Below are positions 5,674 through 29,012 of a DNA stretch of 34,987 nucleotides, piece after piece. The DNA is taken from the NCBI GenBank assembly GCA_964370875.1, contig CAYJLM010000002.1, forward strand, positions 1-34,987. The letters run 5' to 3'. The notes under the pieces were generated by a model, which saw nothing but the letters and a program-made list of their open reading frames with translations, was not told where the DNA came from and ran no database searches. The position numbers were made by a program, and so were the translations under genes. Position 1 is the stretch's first letter. Each line of letters opens with the position of its first letter. This stretch comes from an uncultured Gammaproteobacteria bacterium. GTDB lineage: Bacteria > Patescibacteriota > Patescibacteriia > JACQRZ01.

Positions 5674-5793
5674 AAGACAAACGTAGTTGAGTGCAATTCT
5701 AGGCGCCGGCGAGGATCGGAGTAAAACGTATACAGTATACGTTGTCGAGAACCGGAGCTGGTAACAACGAAATGCGCCAACTACGTTTGTCTT
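5674..5793 (-). repeat. palindromic structured element, subfamily 1, copy a
   Basis: 15-bp closing stem 5674-5688 / 5779-5793. Central hairpin aacgtata-cag-tatacgtt (5725-5743). The 90-nt core 5689-5778 aligns without gaps to 28908-28997 as reverse complement (73/90 identical). Confidence 0.85.
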
Positions 5794-7487
5794 TATGCTA
5801 GTATTTTTACCATATATGTGTCTTCAAGTCCATACCCAAGCTTCGCATAGTATTCGCGCACCCCTATGCCGGCAATGACCGCCATTTTGGTATATCCTGC
5901 ATCCTTGGCGATTATTTCAGCTCGCTCCATGAGCTTTCTCCCTAATCCCTTGTGTTGCGAGGCGCTGGAATCTTTTTCGTTAATAGTAACGAGCTGTCCG
6001 TACGTGTGTAGTTCTCGGATGAGCGCGGCACCACGGAGTTCTTCGAAATGGTCAACGATGGGATTATCTACGGAGGAGGGGAATCGCAGGCGCAGGAACG
6101 CAAACAAGACAGACTCATCCTCACTTTCGTAGCTCAAAAAATACTCAATTCCCCCCGATGCGCTATATGTCCTCTCCTTGTAATAAGGAGCACCTATATG
6201 CTGAGCATTAGACTCAAGAACGTGCCCAACCTCTCTGCAACGCAAGCACCGACATACGAGCCCATGCTCTTCCATGTATTCCCGCACGGTTTGCCGTAGG
6301 TTTGTCACCTTACTTCCGTGTGAAATTTCTTGCGACGGAAAATCTCGAATGATGCGTGCGATACGCATAGTGGGTGGCACGAGCGCTTTGATCTGGGCGA
6401 GAAGGGGAACAAGCTGTTCGGTGGTGTAGGGCGTATAGCGGCCATCGCGCACCCATTCCTCAAGCTCTGTTGTGGGCGTGACAATACAGGGATAGAGCTT
6501 AATCGTATCGGGCTGGAAATCGCTTTGGGAAAAAATACGCTGCGCATCGCGCACATCACTCTCCGGGGTCGCGCCGGGTAATCCCTGCATAAGATGATAG
6601 TCCACTTTGAGTCCCGCATCCTTCAGAAGGCGGGTCGCATAAATTGAAGCGCCCGTGAGGTGTCCGCGTTTGATGCGTTTTAGAATCGTGTCATCGGGTG
6701 ATTGCACCCCCAGCTCAACCCGCGTGACCCCCAGGTCGCGCAAGCGCTTGATTTCCTGAACGCTGATCCAGTCGGGTCGCGTTTCTATTGTCAGTCCGAT
6801 ACAGCGATGGACGGCTGTTTCATTGATGCTCTGCTGTTCAAAAAGTTTTTCACTCCGCCATTCGTTTTTTTCCGTACCTAAAAAACGACTGAACGGTGAG
6901 TCAGGAGAAGGGGGCGGCATATCGCGCGCGGGACCTCCGACATCGTTCATTGCGCGGAAACACTCAGCGATAAACCACTGCTGGTAGTCGACAGGGTAAG
7001 ACGACCATGTTCCACCCTTGATAATCAGTTCAATCTTGTCGGCAGGATGGCCGTTGCGTTCTAGGATTTCAATGCGCCGGCGTGTTTGGGTATACGGATC
7101 AAACTGTAATGTGAGCGCCCGTGCCGCTGCCGGTTCGGTCGCGATATAGCTTTTGGGCATGCGTTCCTCAGTGGGACAGTAGACGCATTTTCCCGGACAC
7201 GGATGAGGCATGGTTAGAAGCGTAACGATTGCCACACCGGATTTTGACCGGATTGGTTTTACGTGAAGCGCTGTTTCAAGCGCCTTATTTTTTGGAGTGG
7301 CGTTCTTGCTCCGCAGGGCGTTATAGGTGTCGCGGATATCGTTGTGCTGGAAGAGCCCCGTACTTTTTCCCTTTGCCGCCTTTTTTTTGAGTTGGTGCAG
7401 AAGGAGGGGGGTTATATTGTCAGAAAGGGCTAATTCGTGTATAATTGAATCAGGAGCAGGATTGGTGCTTATGCCTGTTTTTTGCAT
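5793..7487 (-). CDS. elp3: Elp3-family radical SAM / GNAT acetyltransferase
   Basis: Cys cluster CPGKCVYCP, radical-SAM barrel, and C-terminal GNAT motif QHKGLGRKLMERAE. ATG 7487 (MQKTGIS...) preferred, because the 42 upstream codons are element sequence. Confidence 0.8.
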   Translation of the reverse strand: MQKTGISTNPAPDSIIHELALSDNITPLLLHQLKKKAAKGKSTGLFQHNDIRDTYNALRSKNATPKNKALETALHVKPIRSKSGVAIVTLLTMPHPCPGKCVYCPTEERMPKSYIATEPAAARALTLQFDPYTQTRRRIEILERNGHPADKIELIIKGGTWSSYPVDYQQWFIAECFRAMNDVGGPARDMPPPSPDSPFSRFLGTEKNEWRSEKLFEQQSINETAVHRCIGLTIETRPDWISVQEIKRLRDLGVTRVELGVQSPDDTILKRIKRGHLTGASIYATRLLKDAGLKVDYHLMQGLPGATPESDVRDAQRIFSQSDFQPDTIKLYPCIVTPTTELEEWVRDGRYTPYTTEQLVPLLAQIKALVPPTMRIARIIRDFPSQEISHGSKVTNLRQTVREYMEEHGLVCRCLRCREVGHVLESNAQHIGAPYYKERTYSASGGIEYFLSYESEDESVLFAFLRLRFPSSVDNPIVDHFEELRGAALIRELHTYGQLVTINEKDSSASQHKGLGRKLMERAEIIAKDAGYTKMAVIAGIGVREYYAKLGYGLEDTYMVKILA

Positions 7488-7496
7488 AGTTTTTTG

Positions 7497-7630
7497 ATTT
7501 ACGAAACTTGTTATGTTCGGACATTTCTTCCTCGGGGCCGGATATTTTTCTGCTGAAAAATTCCTTAAACTCAGACCGTCGTCCTCCGTATGCCCCTGTG
7601 GAGAAACGTCCAAACATAAGTTTCGTAATT
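7497..7630 (+). repeat. palindromic structured element, subfamily 2, copy a
   Basis: Closing stem 7497-7509 / 7618-7630 plus 7513-7517 / 7613-7617. P2 tttcttc (7524-7530) / ggagaaa (7600-7606). The 68-nt core 7535-7602 is 64/68 identical to 18193-18260. Confidence 0.9.
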
Positions 7631-7643
7631 CCTAAGCAGATCC

Positions 7644-11893: not shown

Positions 11894-14695
11894 ATGCTTA
11901 CACAATCTATGGAAAAAGAACACATTATCATCAAAGGCGCACGGCAGCACAATCTCAAAAATATCGATGTTGAGATTCCAATCAATTCGCTGACCGTCAT
12001 CACGGGGCTTTCCGGAAGCGGGAAGTCGTCTTTGGCGTTTGATACGTTGTATGCGGAAGGGCAGCGCAGATACGTGGAGAGCTTGTCGGCATACGCGCGG
12101 CAGTTTTTGGGTGTTATGAATAAGCCCGATGTCGACTCTATCAAAGGCCTGAGTCCGGCTGTTGCGATACAGCAGAAAAAGATGTCGGCAAATCCTCGTT
12201 CGACCGTGGCGACTGTGACGGAAATTTATGACTATCTCCGCTTGCTCTATGCGCGTATTGGCGTTCCGCATTGTCCCAAGTGTGGCGCGCGCATTTCGCA
12301 TCAGGACGCGCAGTCGATTACCAAGCAAATTATCGGGAACTATCACGGCAAGCGCATTACGATACTTGCCCCGCTTGTTCGCGCGAAAAAAGGAACGTAT
12401 GACTATTTATTCACCGACCTGAAGAAGCAGGGATTTACTCGCGTACGCGTTGATGGCGTGCTGTATAATCTCGGGACGGAAAATATATTATTGAAGCGAT
12501 ATGTCCAGCATACCATTGAAGTGGTTGTAGACAGATTTGAGGCATCTGAGGAAGAAAAGTCCCGTATTCAGGAATCGATTGAAAAAGGTCTTCAGCATGG
12601 AAGTGGGTTCGTTGTTGTGCTGGCAGAAAAGCGTGAGGCGGGCACCGCGCTAGGCACCGAATCAAAGAAGTACGATGAAAAGTTTTTTAGCCAGCATCTC
12701 GCGTGCGTTCATTGCGGGATTAGTTTCGACGAGCTTCAGCCGAGGAATTTTTCATTCAACGCCCCGCAAGGCGCGTGTCCGGAATGCCACGGTCTTGGTG
12801 TTATCGAGGAGTTTGACGAGGATCTGATTATCCCTGATCCAAACCGATCTATTTTGCGAGGCGGTATCGCACCGTGGACAACAACGGCGTTGTGGATGCG
12901 CGACAGCGCGCTTTCAGCACTCGCGAAGCACTATCATTTCAATCTCGACACGCCGATCAATAATCTTCCGCGGCCGGTCATACGCATGTTGCTTGAAGGC
13001 GATCCGGAAGTGGGATACGAGGGTATTGTTCCTCAGCTAAAACGGTACTACCACAAAACTGGATCCGAAGAGCGCAGGGCAGAGATTGGAAAATTTTTAC
13101 GGCCAACCACGTGTCCATCATGCAATGGCAATCGACTCAAAAAAGAGAGCATGGCCGTGACCGTGGGTGCAAAAAATATCATGGAGCTGACGGGTTTATC
13201 TCTGCAGGATGCGTTGGATTTTTTTACTACTCTCGACCTGTCAGAAAAAGAAAAGAAAATCGCCAATCTTATCATCAAAGAGATTCGCGCGCGCGTCCTT
13301 TTTCTCGTGAACGTCGGCTTGGAATATCTGACATTATCGCGGAGTGCAGGGTCGCTTTCCGGCGGTGAGGCACAGCGTATTCATCTTGCGACGCAGATTG
13401 GATCCGAGCTGCGCGGTGTCATGTATATTCTCGATGAGCCATCTATCGGCTTGCATCAGAGGGATAACAAAAAGCTGATTGAGACGCTGAAAAATCTGCG
13501 CGATATCGGGAATACGGTGATTGTTGTAGAGCACGATGAGGAGACCATGCTTGCGTCCGATCATATTATTGATATTGGGCCGGGTGCGGGTTTGCACGGG
13601 GGAAATGTGATCTTTTCGGGCACGCCCGCAAAAATGATGACGGCAAAGAATTCATTGACAGGCCAGTACTTGTCGGGAAAGAAAACAATTCCTGTTCCGG
13701 ACAAGCGTCGGCCGGCCCGCGGGTTTCTCACGCTCACCGGAGCCAGTGAGCACAATTTGAAAAATATCGAGGTAAAATTTCCATTGTCGGTACTTGCGTG
13801 TATTACAGGTGTATCGGGGAGCGGAAAAAGCACGCTTGTCACAGAAACGCTCTATCCGATTTTGGCAAAGACATTTTTTGGATCGACCGATATCCCGGGG
13901 GCGCATAAAAAAATAGACGGAGTCAGCTATCTTGATAAGGTAATTATCATCGATCAGAACCCAATCGGTCGGACACCGCGGTCAAACCCCGCCACTTACA
14001 CCGGCATCTTTACGTATATCCGCGAGCTCTTTACGGCTACAAAAGAGGCGCGTATGCGCGGGTATGCCCCGGGACGATTTAGTTTCAATGTTGCGGAAGG
14101 GCGCTGTGGCAATTGCGACGGCGATGGATTGATAAAAATAGAAATGCATTTTCTTCCCGACGTGTATATTCCCTGCGAAGTATGCAGCGGCAAACGCTAC
14201 GACGATGAAAAAAACATCGCCGATATTTTGGCAATGACCGTGGAGGAGGCGGTGCAGTTTTTTGCGCCTGTCCCGAGGGTAAAGAATAAATTGCAGACCC
14301 TGCTGGACGTGGGGCTCGGATATATCGAACTGGGACAGTCAGCAACCACGCTCTCCGGTGGTGAAGCCCAGCGCATTAAGCTTGCCACAGAGCTATCGCG
14401 CCGTGATACCGGCAGAACACTGTACATTCTTGATGAGCCGACAACAGGACTCCATTTTGAAGATATCAAGAAACTGCTCGGGGTGCTGAACCGACTCGTA
14501 GACAAACAAAATTCCGTATTGGTTATTGAGCACAATCTTGATGTGATAAAAACAGCTGACTATATTATCGACCTTGGGCCTGAAGGAGGGGAGAAGGGTG
14601 GCCATATCGTTGCACAAGGCACGCCGGAGGAGGTCGCGAAAGTCACCGGCAGCTACACGGGGCAGTACCTTAAGAAAATACTTAAAAAAAGTTGA
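11894..14695 (+). CDS. uvrA: excinuclease ABC subunit A
   Basis: Two ABC modules (GLSGSGKSS and GVSGSGKST Walker A; two LSGGE signatures), zinc-finger Cys pairs, N-terminal [12 protein letters not shown]. Confidence 0.95.
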
Positions 14696-17412: not shown

Positions 17413-18519
17413 ATGAATTTCTGGAAAAAGCTGAAAAAACCAATACGGTGCCTCGCGCCGATGGCAGATGTCACCGACGCGGCTTTTCGCCGTATTATTG
17501 CGAAATATGGGAAACCCGACGTCATGTGGACGGAATTTGTGTCTGTGGATGGTCTCTGTTCTATCGGACGCGAAAAGCTGCTGCCCGATCTTTGGTACAC
17601 ACAAGCCGAGCGACCTATTGTCGCGCAGATTTTCGGATGCAATCCTGAGAATTTCTATAAAGCCGCCCTCCTCATCAAAGAACTGGGATTTGACGGAATC
17701 GACATCAATATGGGGTGTCCGATGAAAAATATCGAACACCAGCACGCGGGAGCGACACTCATGAAGGATCCGCAGCTCGCCGTAAAGATTGTTCAGGAAA
17801 CAAAACGCGGCGCCGGCAAACTTCCCGTTTCAGTCAAAACGCGTCTTGGGTATAACAAGGTTATGATCGAAGAATGGATTTTGCCGCTGCTTGATGCGGA
17901 ACCTGCTGCATTGACGATCCATGCTCGTACGCGGAAAGAGATGTCAAAGGTTCCGGCGCACTGGGATATTCTCGGCGATGTTGTTGAAAAAATACACGCG
18001 CAGTATACGACCAGTAGAAACCGACCGATTATCATTGGCAACGGTGACGTAAAAGACATGGATGATGCGTATGATAAAGTAAAACAGTACGGCGTTGACG
18101 GAGTGATGCTGGGGCGGGCGATATTTGGGAACCCATGGTTGTTTGCGCATCCACCAATTGCGAAGCATTCCCCCTCGGGTACTTGTTCCTCAGGGCCGGA
18201 TATTTTTCTGCTGAAAAATTCCTTAAACTCAGGCCGTCGCCTTCCGTATGCCCCTGCGGACAAGAACCCGAGGGAGAGCTTCGCAATTCTCGGTACCCAT
18301 GTTCCGTCGCAAGAAGAAAAAATGTCTGTTCTGCTCGAACATACAAGTGTTTTTGACCAGCTCTTTGCCGGAATCAAAAACTTTGATATTATGAAAAAAC
18401 ATTATAAGGCATATGTATCCGGTTTTGACGGCGCCAAAGAGCTGCGCGTACAGCTTATGGCGTGCAAGACCGCGCAAGAAATTTCCAAAATTATTCATAA
18501 AGAATTTCCGTCACTATGA
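17413..18519 (+). CDS. dus: tRNA-dihydrouridine synthase carrying an in-frame element insertion of about 45 codons
   Basis: LAPMADVTDAAFR, DINMGCP, VSVKTRLG and GNGDV motifs. C-terminal helical domain KKHYKAYVSGFDGAKELRVQL. An extra segment follows GNPWLF. Confidence 0.9.
   Translation: MNFWKKLKKPIRCLAPMADVTDAAFRRIIAKYGKPDVMWTEFVSVDGLCSIGREKLLPDLWYTQAERPIVAQIFGCNPENFYKAALLIKELGFDGIDINMGCPMKNIEHQHAGATLMKDPQLAVKIVQETKRGAGKLPVSVKTRLGYNKVMIEEWILPLLDAEPAALTIHARTRKEMSKVPAHWDILGDVVEKIHAQYTTSRNRPIIIGNGDVKDMDDAYDKVKQYGVDGVMLGRAIFGNPWLFAHPPIAKHSPSGTCSSGPDIFLLKNSLNSGRRLPYAPADKNPRESFAILGTHVPSQEEKMSVLLEHTSVFDQLFAGIKNFDIMKKHYKAYVSGFDGAKELRVQLMACKTAQEISKIIHKEFPSL
18156..18288 (+). repeat. palindromic structured element, subfamily 2, copy b, inside dus
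   Basis: Arms 18156-18166 / 18278-18288 (11 bp) and 18172-18180 / 18266-18274 (9 bp). P2 cttgttc (18182-18188) / ggacaag (18258-18264). Core 18193-18260 is 64/68 identical to 7535-7602. Confidence 0.9.
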
Positions 18520-28892: not shown

Positions 28893-29012
28893 ATGACTTC
28901 CGCGTTTGGCACATTTCTTCGTTGCCAACTCCGGTACTCGACAACGTACATTGTGTACGCCTTACTCCGTTCCTCATTGGCGCCTAGAACTGCGCTCAAA
29001 CGCAAAAGTCAT
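28893..29012 (+). repeat. palindromic structured element, subfamily 1, copy b
   Basis: 15-bp closing stem 28893-28907 / 28998-29012 (two C/A mismatches on plus, equal to G:U on minus). Central hairpin cgtaca-ttg-tgtacg (28945-28959). Core 28908-28997 is 73/90 identical to the reverse complement of 5689-5778. Confidence 0.85.

What the first reader, a model, noticed from the sequence alone, without database searches (positions are those of the whole stretch)
18156..18288. Element copy sits inside the dus coding sequence and leaves the frame open
The Dus ORF reads straight through the element. GNPWLFA is followed by about 45-50 extra residues (HPPIAKHSPSGTCSSGPDIFLLKNSLNSGRRLPYAPADKNPRESFAILGTH). 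The normal C-terminal helical domain then resumes (VPSQEEKMSVLLEH...KKHYKAYVSGFDGAKELR). E. coli DusB has only about 13 residues between the PWIF motif and that helix, as I recall it. The insertion falls in the linker between the TIM barrel and the tRNA-binding domain, where a loop could be tolerated. This recalls the Rickettsia palindromic elements (RPEs), which insert in frame into protein genes. Alternatively the segment could be removed at the RNA level. The stem-defined span is 133 nt, which is not a multiple of 3, so the true insertion boundaries must differ by 1-2 nt.
Basis: partly seen in the sequence, partly recalled or inferred. Interest (0 to 1): 0.8.

Follow-up and report, generated by a model that had tools for sequence, protein, structure and literature searches.

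The report
Palindromic repeat translated inside dus gene
A 132-base hairpin-forming repeat sits in frame inside a tRNA-modification gene of a candidate-phyla-radiation bacterium, adding a 44-residue floppy loop, and belongs to a widespread, apparently undescribed repeat family that often inserts readably into housekeeping genes, as the Rickettsia palindromic elements do.

Summary
The Dus ORF (17413-18519) reads through a 132-nt hairpin element (18157-18288, 44 codons) placed just after GNPWLF, in the linker between the TIM barrel and the helical domain. A second copy is intergenic (7497-7629).

The element is not a conserved Dus feature. Close orthologues have an empty site or unrelated hairpin inserts there.

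Each copy has a conserved core of two small covarying hairpins, closed by a long stem that is self-complementary but copy-specific.

About 20% of copies lie in frame and stop-free inside conserved proteins (TsaD, IscS, UvrD, PheT, KsgA, RecG, Dus), in either orientation. None breaks a frame. Copies inside genes are therefore most likely translated, not removed from the RNA.

G.U-type stem mismatches favour one strand of the element whichever way the host gene runs. This points to a strand-specific single-stranded intermediate; in dus that strand is antisense.

There are no Rfam, Pfam or NCBIfam matches, no consistent target-site duplication, no partner transposase in the held DNA, and no description in the literature searched.

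Verdict: an RPE-like in-frame palindromic mobile element, from a new family with an unusual architecture. How it moves is unknown.

The parts
17413..18519 (+). Host gene: tRNA-dihydrouridine synthase (Dus), 368 aa. An alternative start at 17461 gives the 352-aa form held in public data. The gene is intact and keeps every column that is invariant in the orthologue alignment.
18157..18288 (-). Element copy A: 132 nt, 44 codons (IAKHSPSGTCSSGPDIFLLKNSLNSGRRLPYAPADKNPRESFAI), read in frame by dus on the + strand. The strand given here is the element's own better-folding strand. The outermost pair is A18156/T18288.
18157..18166 (.). Terminal inverted repeat, left end (ATTGCGAAGC). It pairs with 18278-18287. 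The subfamily consensus is ATTRCGAAAC.
18278..18287 (.). Terminal inverted repeat, right end (GCTTCGCAAT).
18175..18263 (.). Conserved segment shared with copy B (89% identity over 89 nt). It covers the inner stem plus the core.
18198..18222 (.). Tip hairpin GGATATTTTTC-TGCT-GAAAAATTCC. The stem covaries in diverged copies.
18232..18241 (.). Hairpin 2 (GGC-CGTC-GCC). Its stem covaries across the family, with at least 8 compensated variants.
7497..7629 (-). Element copy B: 133 nt, intergenic, in the 156-nt spacer (7488-7643) between the divergent ELP3-like gene and a methyltransferase gene. The syntenic relative L002 has a 23-nt spacer there (empty site).

Best explanation
The segment is one copy of a small, non-coding, palindromic repeat. 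It behaves like a MITE and, in its relation to genes, like the Rickettsia palindromic elements. The family is widespread in Candidate Phyla Radiation (Patescibacteria) genomes.

This copy landed in the Dus interdomain linker. Its length is a multiple of three and it has no stop codon in the dus frame. It is therefore most likely transcribed and translated with the gene, adding a 44-residue disordered surface loop between the catalytic barrel and the tRNA-binding helical domain. The enzyme otherwise looks intact.

The element has three parts: short terminal inverted repeats, a long stem whose sequence differs between copies but stays self-complementary, and a conserved core of two small hairpins.

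Shown here:
- It is a repeat family.
- There are filled and empty sites.
- Copies inside genes strictly preserve the reading frame.
- All three helices covary.
- The core is far more conserved than the host genes.
- The pairing asymmetry follows the element's own polarity.

Inferred:
- The family spreads, or is maintained, through a single-stranded form of one defined strand. That could be ssDNA, as in IS200/IS605, REP-RAYT or attC systems, or an RNA transcribed from the element itself. My confidence in this step is about 0.4.
- Copies survive inside genes only at structurally permissive loops. That would explain why the same positions in Dus, TsaD and IscS are occupied again and again.
- The loop probably has no benefit for Dus. 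It is a tolerated passenger.
For: - Repeat with a second copy in the window, and strongly non-random folding.
These gave 109 distinct full copies with a median span of 138 nt.
- Arms are copy-specific yet self-complementary. The own-arm pairing score has a median of 17, against 7 for arms paired across copies; 88 of 109 copies exceed the 95th percentile of the cross-copy control.
- Covariation: 18 of 53 pairs are compensated among just four subfamily members. Hairpin 2 has at least 8 compensated variants. The tip stem covaries in diverged copies.
- Filled versus empty sites. For dus, L003 has an 8-aa linker. Homology between the window and its relatives breaks right after W-L-F and resumes just before Q-E-E-K, where the three filled alleles align. 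For copy B, the spacer is 156 nt against 23 nt in the syntenic L002.
- Dus linker lengths in 76 orthologues: 30 fall in the 10-14 aa class (typically 11 aa), and about 20 carry heterogeneous 20-70 aa inserts.
- 23 of 109 copies are in frame and stop-free inside long ORFs; at least 19 of these are recognisable conserved proteins. Pfam confirmed TsaD, Aminotran_5, PheT, KsgA, UvrD, RecG and Dus. No copy breaks a frame.
- Both orientations occur at the same protein site: Dus (window versus L130) and IscS.
- Stop codons are depleted even in intergenic copies: 1.15 open frames out of 6, against 0.49 in shuffles. The dus copy has 4 of 6 open.
- The insert is modelled as coil with pLDDT below 50. The barrel is modelled with moderate confidence and the C-terminal helical domain with high confidence. 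The insert maps to the 12-residue interdomain linker of 1vhn.
- Strand asymmetry in the variable arms: 86 against 34 G.U-type mismatches, and 49 against 12 copies (p about 2e-6). It persists in both host orientations, 24:8 and 18:5.
- Cores are near-identical across hosts whose proteins are only 46-64% identical.
Against: - There is no direct expression or proteomic evidence that the 44 residues are made. Translation is inferred from frame preservation across the family.
- Hallmarks of classical transposition are weak. There is no consistent target-site duplication, no target motif, and no larger element or transposase flanked by the same ends in 1.1 Mb of held DNA.
- The extreme conservation of the core, with stems diverged beyond recognition, is not what a purely selfish and decaying MITE should show. 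It may indicate a function I have not identified.
- Copies were found by an exact 25-mer, so the apparent invariance of the tip hairpin is partly due to how they were sampled. 12 diverged copies exist in the same DNA.
- The structure model has only modest overall confidence: mean pLDDT 63 from a 22-sequence alignment.
- I did not verify contig by contig that the host contigs belong to the CPR.
Confidence: 0.8

Rival explanations
1. The element is an intervening sequence that is removed or skipped at the RNA level. It could be a tiny intron, a self-cleaving and ligating RNA, or a site of translational bypass. In that case mature Dus would lack the 44 residues.
For: The stem brings the two flanks of dus together. 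The structure covaries, as a functional RNA would. CPR genomes are known to carry introns in rRNA genes (my own knowledge, not tested here).
Against: - All 23 copies inside ORFs preserve the frame and lack stops, and none of the 109 breaks a frame. Excision or bypass would remove that constraint.
- Copies sit in both orientations at the same protein site.
- Host genes read the element in four different frames.
- The better-folding strand of the dus copy is antisense to the mRNA.
- No Rfam family matches, even at E up to 10.
Confidence: 0.04
2. The family is mainly a functional structured nucleic acid, with mobility secondary. It could be a small RNA made from the better-folding strand, or a DNA or RNA site bound by a conserved CPR protein. 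On this reading the dus copy would make an antisense RNA or act as a cis-element, and the protein loop would be a by-product.
For: - Core nucleotide sequence is conserved across hosts whose proteins are 46-64% identical, including at positions that are synonymous in the host frame.
- All three helices covary.
- Pairing asymmetry follows the element's own polarity, independent of host transcription.
- Intergenic copies between co-directional genes show an orientation bias of 24:9.
Against: - A cellular RNA gene would not be expected at more than a hundred different loci, inside unrelated proteins, in both orientations.
- Sites are filled in one genome and empty in a close relative.
- No promoter or terminator signal flanks the copies (flank logos).
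- Recent horizontal spread, or gene conversion among copies, would also keep the cores alike.
- No known RNA family matches.
Confidence: 0.13
3. The 44 residues are a lineage-specific protein insertion selected for a protein-level role in Dus, for example an extra tRNA contact or a partner-binding loop. On this reading the DNA palindrome would be incidental.
For: The insert lies between the catalytic and tRNA-binding domains, where a loop could touch the substrate. Many CPR Dus proteins have something at this position.
Against: - The inserts in different orthologues are unrelated in sequence and length.
- The same DNA element occurs intergenically and in unrelated proteins, read in four frames and two orientations.
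- The segment is modelled as disordered.
- The peptide matches no protein family.
Confidence: 0.02
4. The insertion is an assembly artefact: a repeat-induced chimera that joined a repeat copy into dus.
For: Repeats often cause misassemblies in metagenomes. Some contigs in the collection end inside copies of this family.
Against: - The identical Dus protein, insert included, is on record on 6-7 contigs of 50-200 kb.
- The insert is exactly 44 codons with matching reading frames on both sides.
- The stem arms are unique to this copy, so they cannot have been borrowed from copy B.
- Independent orthologues carry inserts at the same site.
Confidence: 0.01

Closest known systems
Rickettsia palindromic elements (RPE-1 to RPE-10)
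   Same: Both are palindromic repeats of about 100-150 bp that are dispersed in small, reduced genomes. A large share of copies is inserted in frame into unrelated housekeeping ORFs, giving translational fusions that appear compatible with the protein fold. The RPE facts come from the review PMC10969869. Here 23 of 109 copies are in ORFs and none breaks a frame.
   Different: - The peptides match no Pfam or NCBIfam model.
- The hosts are CPR bacteria, not Rickettsia.
- Each RPE encodes one conserved peptide. This family is read in four frames and two orientations.
- The stems here are copy-specific with a conserved core. I know of no such description for RPEs.
- Cores are conserved across very divergent hosts.
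Bacterial MITEs found inside genes (ERIC/IRU, RU-1/2/3, Correia/NEMIS, BOX)
   Same: They are small, non-autonomous, hairpin-forming and multi-copy. They lie mostly between genes and are co-transcribed with them, and are occasionally intragenic with open frames (PMC10969869, PMC2759123). One subfamily here has terminal inverted repeats.
   Different: - In typical MITEs the terminal repeats and the whole sequence are conserved and they carry target-site duplications. Here the middle of the stem is hypervariable but compensated, and no consistent duplication is seen.
- No related insertion sequence was found.
REP/REPIN elements mobilised by RAYT transposases, and IS200/IS605-type single-strand transposition
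   Same: Both are hairpin repeats whose biology depends on one DNA strand folding. The strand-specific G.T tolerance seen here is what such a mechanism would leave behind. Hairpin 2 has a CGTC loop, which recalls the CGTC-tagged REPs of PMC3733652; I only noted this resemblance.
   Different: - REPINs have conserved arms (the REP sequences) and a variable spacer. This family has the inverse layout.
- REPs are extragenic.
- No RAYT or Y1 transposase was looked for beyond the held loci, and none was found next to copies.
Integron attC sites
   Same: Both are imperfect palindromes with conserved structure and variable sequence. Both function as a folded single strand of defined polarity and have short conserved boxes at the base of the stem.
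   Different: - attC sites lie in cassette arrays next to an integrase gene. These copies are dispersed and even lie inside genes.
- The terminal motif matches the R-box consensus only at AAC/GTT.
- attC sites have no conserved core.

Membership tests
Dus (tRNA-dihydrouridine synthase, PF01207), the host gene | Dus TIM-barrel domain followed by a C-terminal helical domain, with the conserved catalytic motifs retained | tested here: met
   8000 homologues with E <= 1e-20; the 120 listed all carry PF01207. Every invariant column of alignment A3 is kept. The protein aligns to solved Dus structures on both sides of the insert.
Rickettsia palindromic elements (RPE) | Sequence homology to an RPE family or its conserved encoded peptide | tested here: inconclusive
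   Insert peptides in four reading frames match no Pfam or NCBIfam model at E <= 10. Whether these libraries hold the RPE peptide models was not checked, and no nucleotide comparison to Rickettsia was possible.
Rickettsia palindromic elements (RPE) | Palindromic repeat of about 100-150 bp, with a high share of copies in frame inside unrelated ORFs | tested here: met
   Median span 138 nt. 23 of 109 copies lie in ORFs, all in frame.
Rickettsia palindromic elements (RPE) | Occurs in Rickettsia or Rickettsiales genomes | tested here: not met
   Host Dus homologues are named Uhrbacteria, Magasanikbacteria and Patescibacteria. One copy is from Candidatus Wildermuthbacteria.
MITE (miniature inverted-repeat transposable element) | Small, non-coding, multi-copy, with filled and empty sites | tested here: met
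MITE | Conserved terminal inverted repeats | tested here: inconclusive
   A subfamily of about 10 copies, including both window copies, shares ATTRCGAAAC...GTTTCGYAAT, often extended to TTTGA/TCAAA. Most other copies show no common terminus.
MITE | Target-site duplications of fixed length | tested here: not met
   Flanking direct repeats of 6 nt or more occur in 6 of 101 copies, against about 2 expected. Their length is not fixed, and neither window copy has one.
MITE | A cognate autonomous element with the same ends that encodes a transposase | tested here: inconclusive
   No pair of terminal motifs flanks a larger unit in 1.1 Mb of held DNA. Whole genomes were not available.
REP/REPIN-RAYT | Conserved REP arms in inverted orientation around a variable spacer | tested here: not met
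   Here the arms are variable and the centre is conserved.
REP/REPIN-RAYT | A RAYT (Y1 HUH transposase) gene in the same genome | not tested
   Only a 35-kb window and short contigs were held. The syntenic 21-kb locus L002 lists no transposase domain.
Self-splicing introns / small ribozymes | Match to a known catalytic RNA family | tested here: not met
   No Rfam match at gathering score over the window, or at E <= 10 over 18100-18340.
Self-splicing introns / small ribozymes | Fixed sense orientation in the host transcript, and no constraint on frame or stop codons | tested here: not met
   Both orientations occur at the same sites. The frame is strictly preserved: 23 in-frame copies and 0 frame-breaking.
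Integron attC | Sits in cassette arrays next to intI, with R''/R' boxes RYYYAAC/GTTRRRY | tested here: not met
   Copies are dispersed, usually one per contig, and some lie inside genes. The terminal motif ACGAAAC/GTTTCGT matches the boxes at only 5 of 7 positions (by eye).

The most novel reading that the evidence does not exclude
The family, and the other two families seen here with the same layout, may represent a new kind of hairpin element in CPR bacteria. Its conserved two-hairpin core would be the functional module: the recognition site for a dedicated, still unknown single-strand-specific enzyme, or a small RNA in its own right. Its long stem would be free to vary as long as it pairs.

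Such an element would be maintained by sequence-level selection, or by continual horizontal spread, across hosts whose proteins are only about 50-60% identical. It would repeatedly colonise the same permissive loops of essential tRNA-modification and DNA-repair proteins.

That would be a new mobilisation or maintenance mechanism, not just another MITE. It would also be a general source of loop insertions in CPR proteins.
Probability: 0.25. Interest if true: 0.8.

Novelty: new variant of a known kind. Interest (0 to 1): 0.6.

Why it matters
CPR/Patescibacteria have tiny genomes and are usually thought of as poor in repeats. Their proteins, however, often contain unexplained extra segments.

This finding gives a concrete source for such segments: a widespread hairpin repeat that lands in frame in housekeeping genes (Dus, TsaD, IscS, PheT, KsgA, UvrD, RecG) and is tolerated as a loop. 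It parallels the classic Rickettsia case in an unrelated, also reduced, lineage. That suggests in-frame palindromic elements are a general feature of reduced genomes.

There are practical consequences. Gene callers produce spurious short ORFs and wrong start codons on these copies. Protein alignments and structure predictions of CPR proteins will show disordered inserts that come from repeats. Contigs break at these elements.

The unusual architecture also gives a testable lead to an unknown single-strand-based mechanism. That architecture is a conserved core, stems that are hypervariable but compensated, and pairing asymmetry tied to the element's own polarity.

Tried and rejected
- **Known RNA family.** Rfam at gathering score over the whole window, and at E <= 10 over the element, gave nothing. 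For the second family only a meaningless miRNA-like hairpin hit appeared, far below threshold.
- **Viral contigs.** No copies.
- **Split genes, as an intron would leave.** The 12 candidates all turned out to be copies between two different co-directional genes.
- **Target-site duplications.** A few suggestive cases (GTATTCT, GTATATGA, GTATGA) but no consistent signal above the control.
- **Shared target motif at the junctions.** None, at most 0.2 bit per position.
- **Autonomous partner flanked by the same terminal repeats.** None. Solo motif hits were chance matches or a copy cut by a contig end.
- **Protein-family match for the encoded peptides.** None.
- **Census of host proteins with a peptide profile.** The word-indexed search returned only short spurious ORFs called on intergenic copies, so no census was obtained.
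- **mRNA folding or transcription-coupled mutation as the cause of the G.U asymmetry.** Rejected, because the asymmetry keeps the element's polarity in both host orientations.
- **Intrinsic-terminator role.** Rejected, because no T-run follows the stem on either strand in the flank logos.
- **A third, degenerate copy in the window.** None found. There is one 10-bit hit at 12729-12754, probably chance.
Full report
**1. What is at the coordinates**

The + strand ORF 17413..18519 (368 aa) is a tRNA-dihydrouridine synthase. A database search returned 8000 homologues with E <= 1e-20; the 120 listed all carry PF01207, and the named ones come from Uhrbacteria, Magasanikbacteria and other Patescibacteria. 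So the window comes from a CPR bacterium.

The ORF runs without a stop through a long hairpin whose outermost pair is A18156/T18288. The segment folds at -69.1 kcal/mol on the + strand (z = -6.1) and -83.4 on the - strand (z = -7.7). None of 200 shuffles folds as well on either strand.

Counted in codons, the insert is 18157-18288: 132 nt, 44 codons, IAKHS...ESFAI. The extra base is simply one member of the terminal A/T pair.

**2. The insert is foreign to Dus**

In an alignment of 22 orthologues everything is conserved up to GNPW(L)F and again from E-E-K-h-x-V-h-E-H onward. Between these anchors the sequences have different lengths and are unrelated.

Across 76 orthologues that have both anchors, 30 fall in the 10-14 aa length class (typically 11 aa), a second class has 19 aa, and about 20 proteins carry 20-70 aa of heterogeneous sequence. 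The window has 56 aa.

At DNA level, homology between the window and its closest relatives stops immediately after TGG-TTG-TTT (W-L-F). These relatives are L001 (82% protein identity), L002 (67%, syntenic) and L003 (63%). For the filled alleles homology resumes just before CAAGAAGAAAA. L003 has only 24 nt in between, which is an empty site.

In the solved T. maritima Dus (1vhn) the barrel ends at residue 224 (GRPWIFK) and the helical domain resumes at residue 237. In the window protein the same two points are 51 residues apart.

An AlphaFold2 model places residues 246-295 as coil with pLDDT around 30-37. The barrel is modelled with moderate confidence, and the C-terminal helical domain reaches 78-94. 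The model's overall confidence is modest: mean pLDDT 63 from 22 aligned sequences.

The identical protein, insert included, is on record on 6-7 long contigs, so an assembly chimera is unlikely.

**3. It is a copy of a repeat**

A second copy lies at 7497-7629. The central 89 nt are 89% identical to the dus copy, including a 40-nt identical run. The outer stems differ at many positions yet still pair.

Copy B fills the spacer between the divergent ELP3-like gene and a methyltransferase gene. The ELP3-like gene's true start is at 7487 by comparison with L002. The spacer is 156 nt here and 23 nt in the syntenic L002, a second filled/empty contrast.

No third copy exists in the window.

**4. The family**

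These gave 109 distinct full copies. It was not found in viral contigs. A 20-mer specific to the window subfamily gave only chance hits in representative genomes.

The anatomy, written in the window's + orientation, is:
- a 5' arm, variable in sequence;
- the tip hairpin;
- a short joining segment;
- hairpin 2, for example GCGCC-GTC-GCGC, with at least 8 compensated variants;
- a 3' arm complementary to the 5' arm.

The median span is 138 nt.

The arms are specific to each copy. Pairing a 5' arm with its own 3' arm scores a median of 17. Pairing it with the 3' arm of another copy scores 7, and 5' arms of different copies are no more alike than chance.

RNAalifold on the four members of the window subfamily finds 53 pairs. 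In 18 of these, both sides have changed and the pair is kept.

A profile search of the 1.1 Mb of held DNA found 12 further copies that lack the exact 25-mer. In these the tip stem covaries (ATTTTCT/AGAAAAT, AAATTTC/GAAATTT, AATTTTT/AAAAATT). The apparent invariance of the tip is therefore partly a result of how I sampled.

About ten copies, including both window copies, share terminal inverted repeats: ATTRCGAAAC...GTTTCGYAAT, often extended to TTTGA/TCAAA.

**5. Relation to genes**

Of the 109 copies, 23 lie inside stretches that stay open for at least 50 codons on both sides. Eight are on the strand the window's dus uses and 15 are on the other strand.

By eye at least 19 of these are in recognisable conserved proteins. 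Pfam confirmed TsaD, class-V aminotransferase (IscS-like, split at profile position 167), PheT, KsgA, UvrD, RecG and another Dus.

The same position is occupied repeatedly:
- four TsaD genes;
- four IscS-like genes, two in each orientation;
- two UvrD genes and two PheT genes;
- a second Dus (L130), with a copy right after W-L-F-R in the opposite orientation to the window.

Host genes read the element in four different frames, giving ...GYFSAEKFLVLAPS......DIFLLKNS......TRNFSAEKYPC... and ...RGIFQQKNIRAS....

Twelve copies looked as if they might split a gene out of frame. All proved to lie between two different co-directional genes. The tally is therefore 23 in frame, 86 intergenic and 0 frame-breaking.

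Even intergenic copies are depleted in stop codons: 1.15 of 6 frames are open over 135 nt, against 0.49 for shuffles (p about 3e-10). The dus copy has 4 of 6 open.

This pattern is what purifying selection on translated insertions produces. It is not expected if the element were spliced out or bypassed.

**6. Polarity**

The strand opposite to the one written above, which is the window's minus strand, folds better in 91 of 109 copies.

Restricting the count to the variable arms, mismatches that are G.U (G.T) on that strand outnumber those that are G.U on the other by 86 to 34. By copy the count is 49 to 12 (p about 2e-6).

The bias keeps the element's own polarity whichever way the host gene runs. 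It is 24:8 when the written strand is the sense strand and 18:5 when the opposite strand is.

Host mRNA folding and transcription- or replication-coupled mutation bias therefore do not explain it. One defined strand of the element must fold, either as ssDNA or as its own RNA.

In dus that strand is antisense to the mRNA. Intergenic copies between co-directional genes are oriented 24:9, with the better-folding strand antisense.

**7. Conservation paradox**

Host proteins carrying copies at the same site are only 46-64% identical. In the four TsaD genes the flanking codons differ at most third positions, while 52 nt of the core are essentially identical. The arms differ in both sequence and length.

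Either the core is under nucleotide-level selection, or copies are renewed by recent insertion, gene conversion or horizontal spread. I could not separate these. No target motif is visible at the junctions. No consistent target-site duplication exists. No larger element with the same ends was found.

**8. The Dus linker is a hot spot for several families**

L001 and L002 carry unrelated hairpins at the same codon position, and these also fold better on the antisense strand.

The L002 hairpin has a second copy in that genome's UvrA-UvrC spacer. Its 38-nt core is identical between the two copies and its arms are compensated, which is the same architecture in a different family.

Other orthologues share recurrent insert peptides (...SSGLRPDSxRF......CHSxxx...GMT...) that suggest still more families.

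The window itself holds a third family with this layout, at 5687-5780 and 28906-28999, with 10 of 44 pairs compensated.

**9. Comparison with what is known**

The behaviour matches the Rickettsia palindromic elements as summarised in PMC10969869. Those are about 150 bp, dispersed, and nearly half are inserted in frame into unrelated ORFs in a way compatible with the fold.

Membership is not supported. The hosts are CPR bacteria, the peptides match no Pfam or NCBIfam model, and this family is read in several frames and orientations.

As a MITE it meets the criteria of size, copy number and filled/empty sites. It only partly meets the terminal-repeat criterion, and it fails the target-site-duplication criterion.

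Its layout is the inverse of a REPIN, which has conserved arms and a variable centre. It shares strand-specific folding with attC sites and with the ends of IS200/IS605 elements, but not their context.

Three full-text searches that included CPR/Patescibacteria or Parcubacteria terms found no description of such elements in CPR genomes. A fourth search on intragenic palindromic repeats in general found no CPR report either.

**10. Verdict**

The dus segment is an in-frame insertion of a palindromic repeat in a permissive interdomain linker, most likely translated into a disordered loop. RNA-level removal is very unlikely.

The element belongs to a large family, apparently undescribed and probably CPR-wide, with an unusual architecture and an intrinsic strand polarity. 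How it moves, and why its core is so conserved, remain open. That open question is where the remaining interest lies.

Noticed in passing
window 5687-5780 and 28906-28999 (reverse complement): A second, unrelated structured repeat family in the window. The 94-nt core is 82% identical between the two copies, the closing stem is copy-specific, and 10 of 44 predicted pairs are compensated. It has the same conserved-core, variable-stem layout as the focal family. The only Rfam match is a far sub-threshold miRNA-like hairpin hit.
   Followed up: partly
L002 10736-10830 and L002 8309-8364: The syntenic relative carries a different hairpin family at the same Dus codon position. A second copy lies in its UvrA-UvrC spacer. 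The 38-nt core is 100% identical between the two and the arms are compensated.
   Followed up: partly
L001 1486-1580: The closest Dus relative (82% identity) has yet another unrelated hairpin insert at the same site, encoding ...SSGPRPESARCGR.... Similar peptides recur in P0009, P0011, P0014, P0017 and P0028, which suggests a further repeat family that uses this site.
   Followed up: partly
window 7488-7613 (- strand): The mechanical ORF for the ELP3-like radical-SAM gene starts at a TTG at 7613, inside element copy B. Comparison with L002 (564 aa) puts the true start at the ATG at 7487. Repeat copies of this kind will mislead start-codon calls.
   Followed up: yes
P0121-P0137 (public protein collection): Gene callers have produced short 'hypothetical proteins' of 25-76 aa from intergenic copies of the element. 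One is from Candidatus Wildermuthbacteria.
   Followed up: no
L003 2729-2758: Just downstream of the empty-site dus, near the contig end, 30 nt resemble the 3' half of the window-subfamily core (ACCTCAGACCGTCACCCTCCGGATGCCC) but lack the tip hairpin. This may be a variant or a partial copy.
   Followed up: no
L133 7351 and 7477: Two copies of the element lie 126 nt apart in direct orientation on one contig, with nearly identical inner arms. This is the only tandem pair seen.
   Followed up: no
window 18235-18238, and hairpin 2 of most family members: The loop of hairpin 2 is CGTC (or AGTC) in most copies. That tetranucleotide tags one of the two REP superfamilies recognised by RAYT transposases (PMC3733652). 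It may be a coincidence.
   Followed up: no
L036 7872, L056 5515, L082 1360: Some copies carry an extra small hairpin (CCCCTxCCACCTCGyGGTGAGGGG) inserted between the tip hairpin and hairpin 2, so the core tolerates nested additions.
   Followed up: no
L002 608-630: In the syntenic relative the divergently transcribed ELP3-like and methyltransferase genes are only 23 nt apart. That leaves almost no room for two promoters.
   Followed up: no
window 12729-12754 (- strand): A weak match to the core profile (10 bits, E = 0.015). It is probably chance.
   Followed up: no
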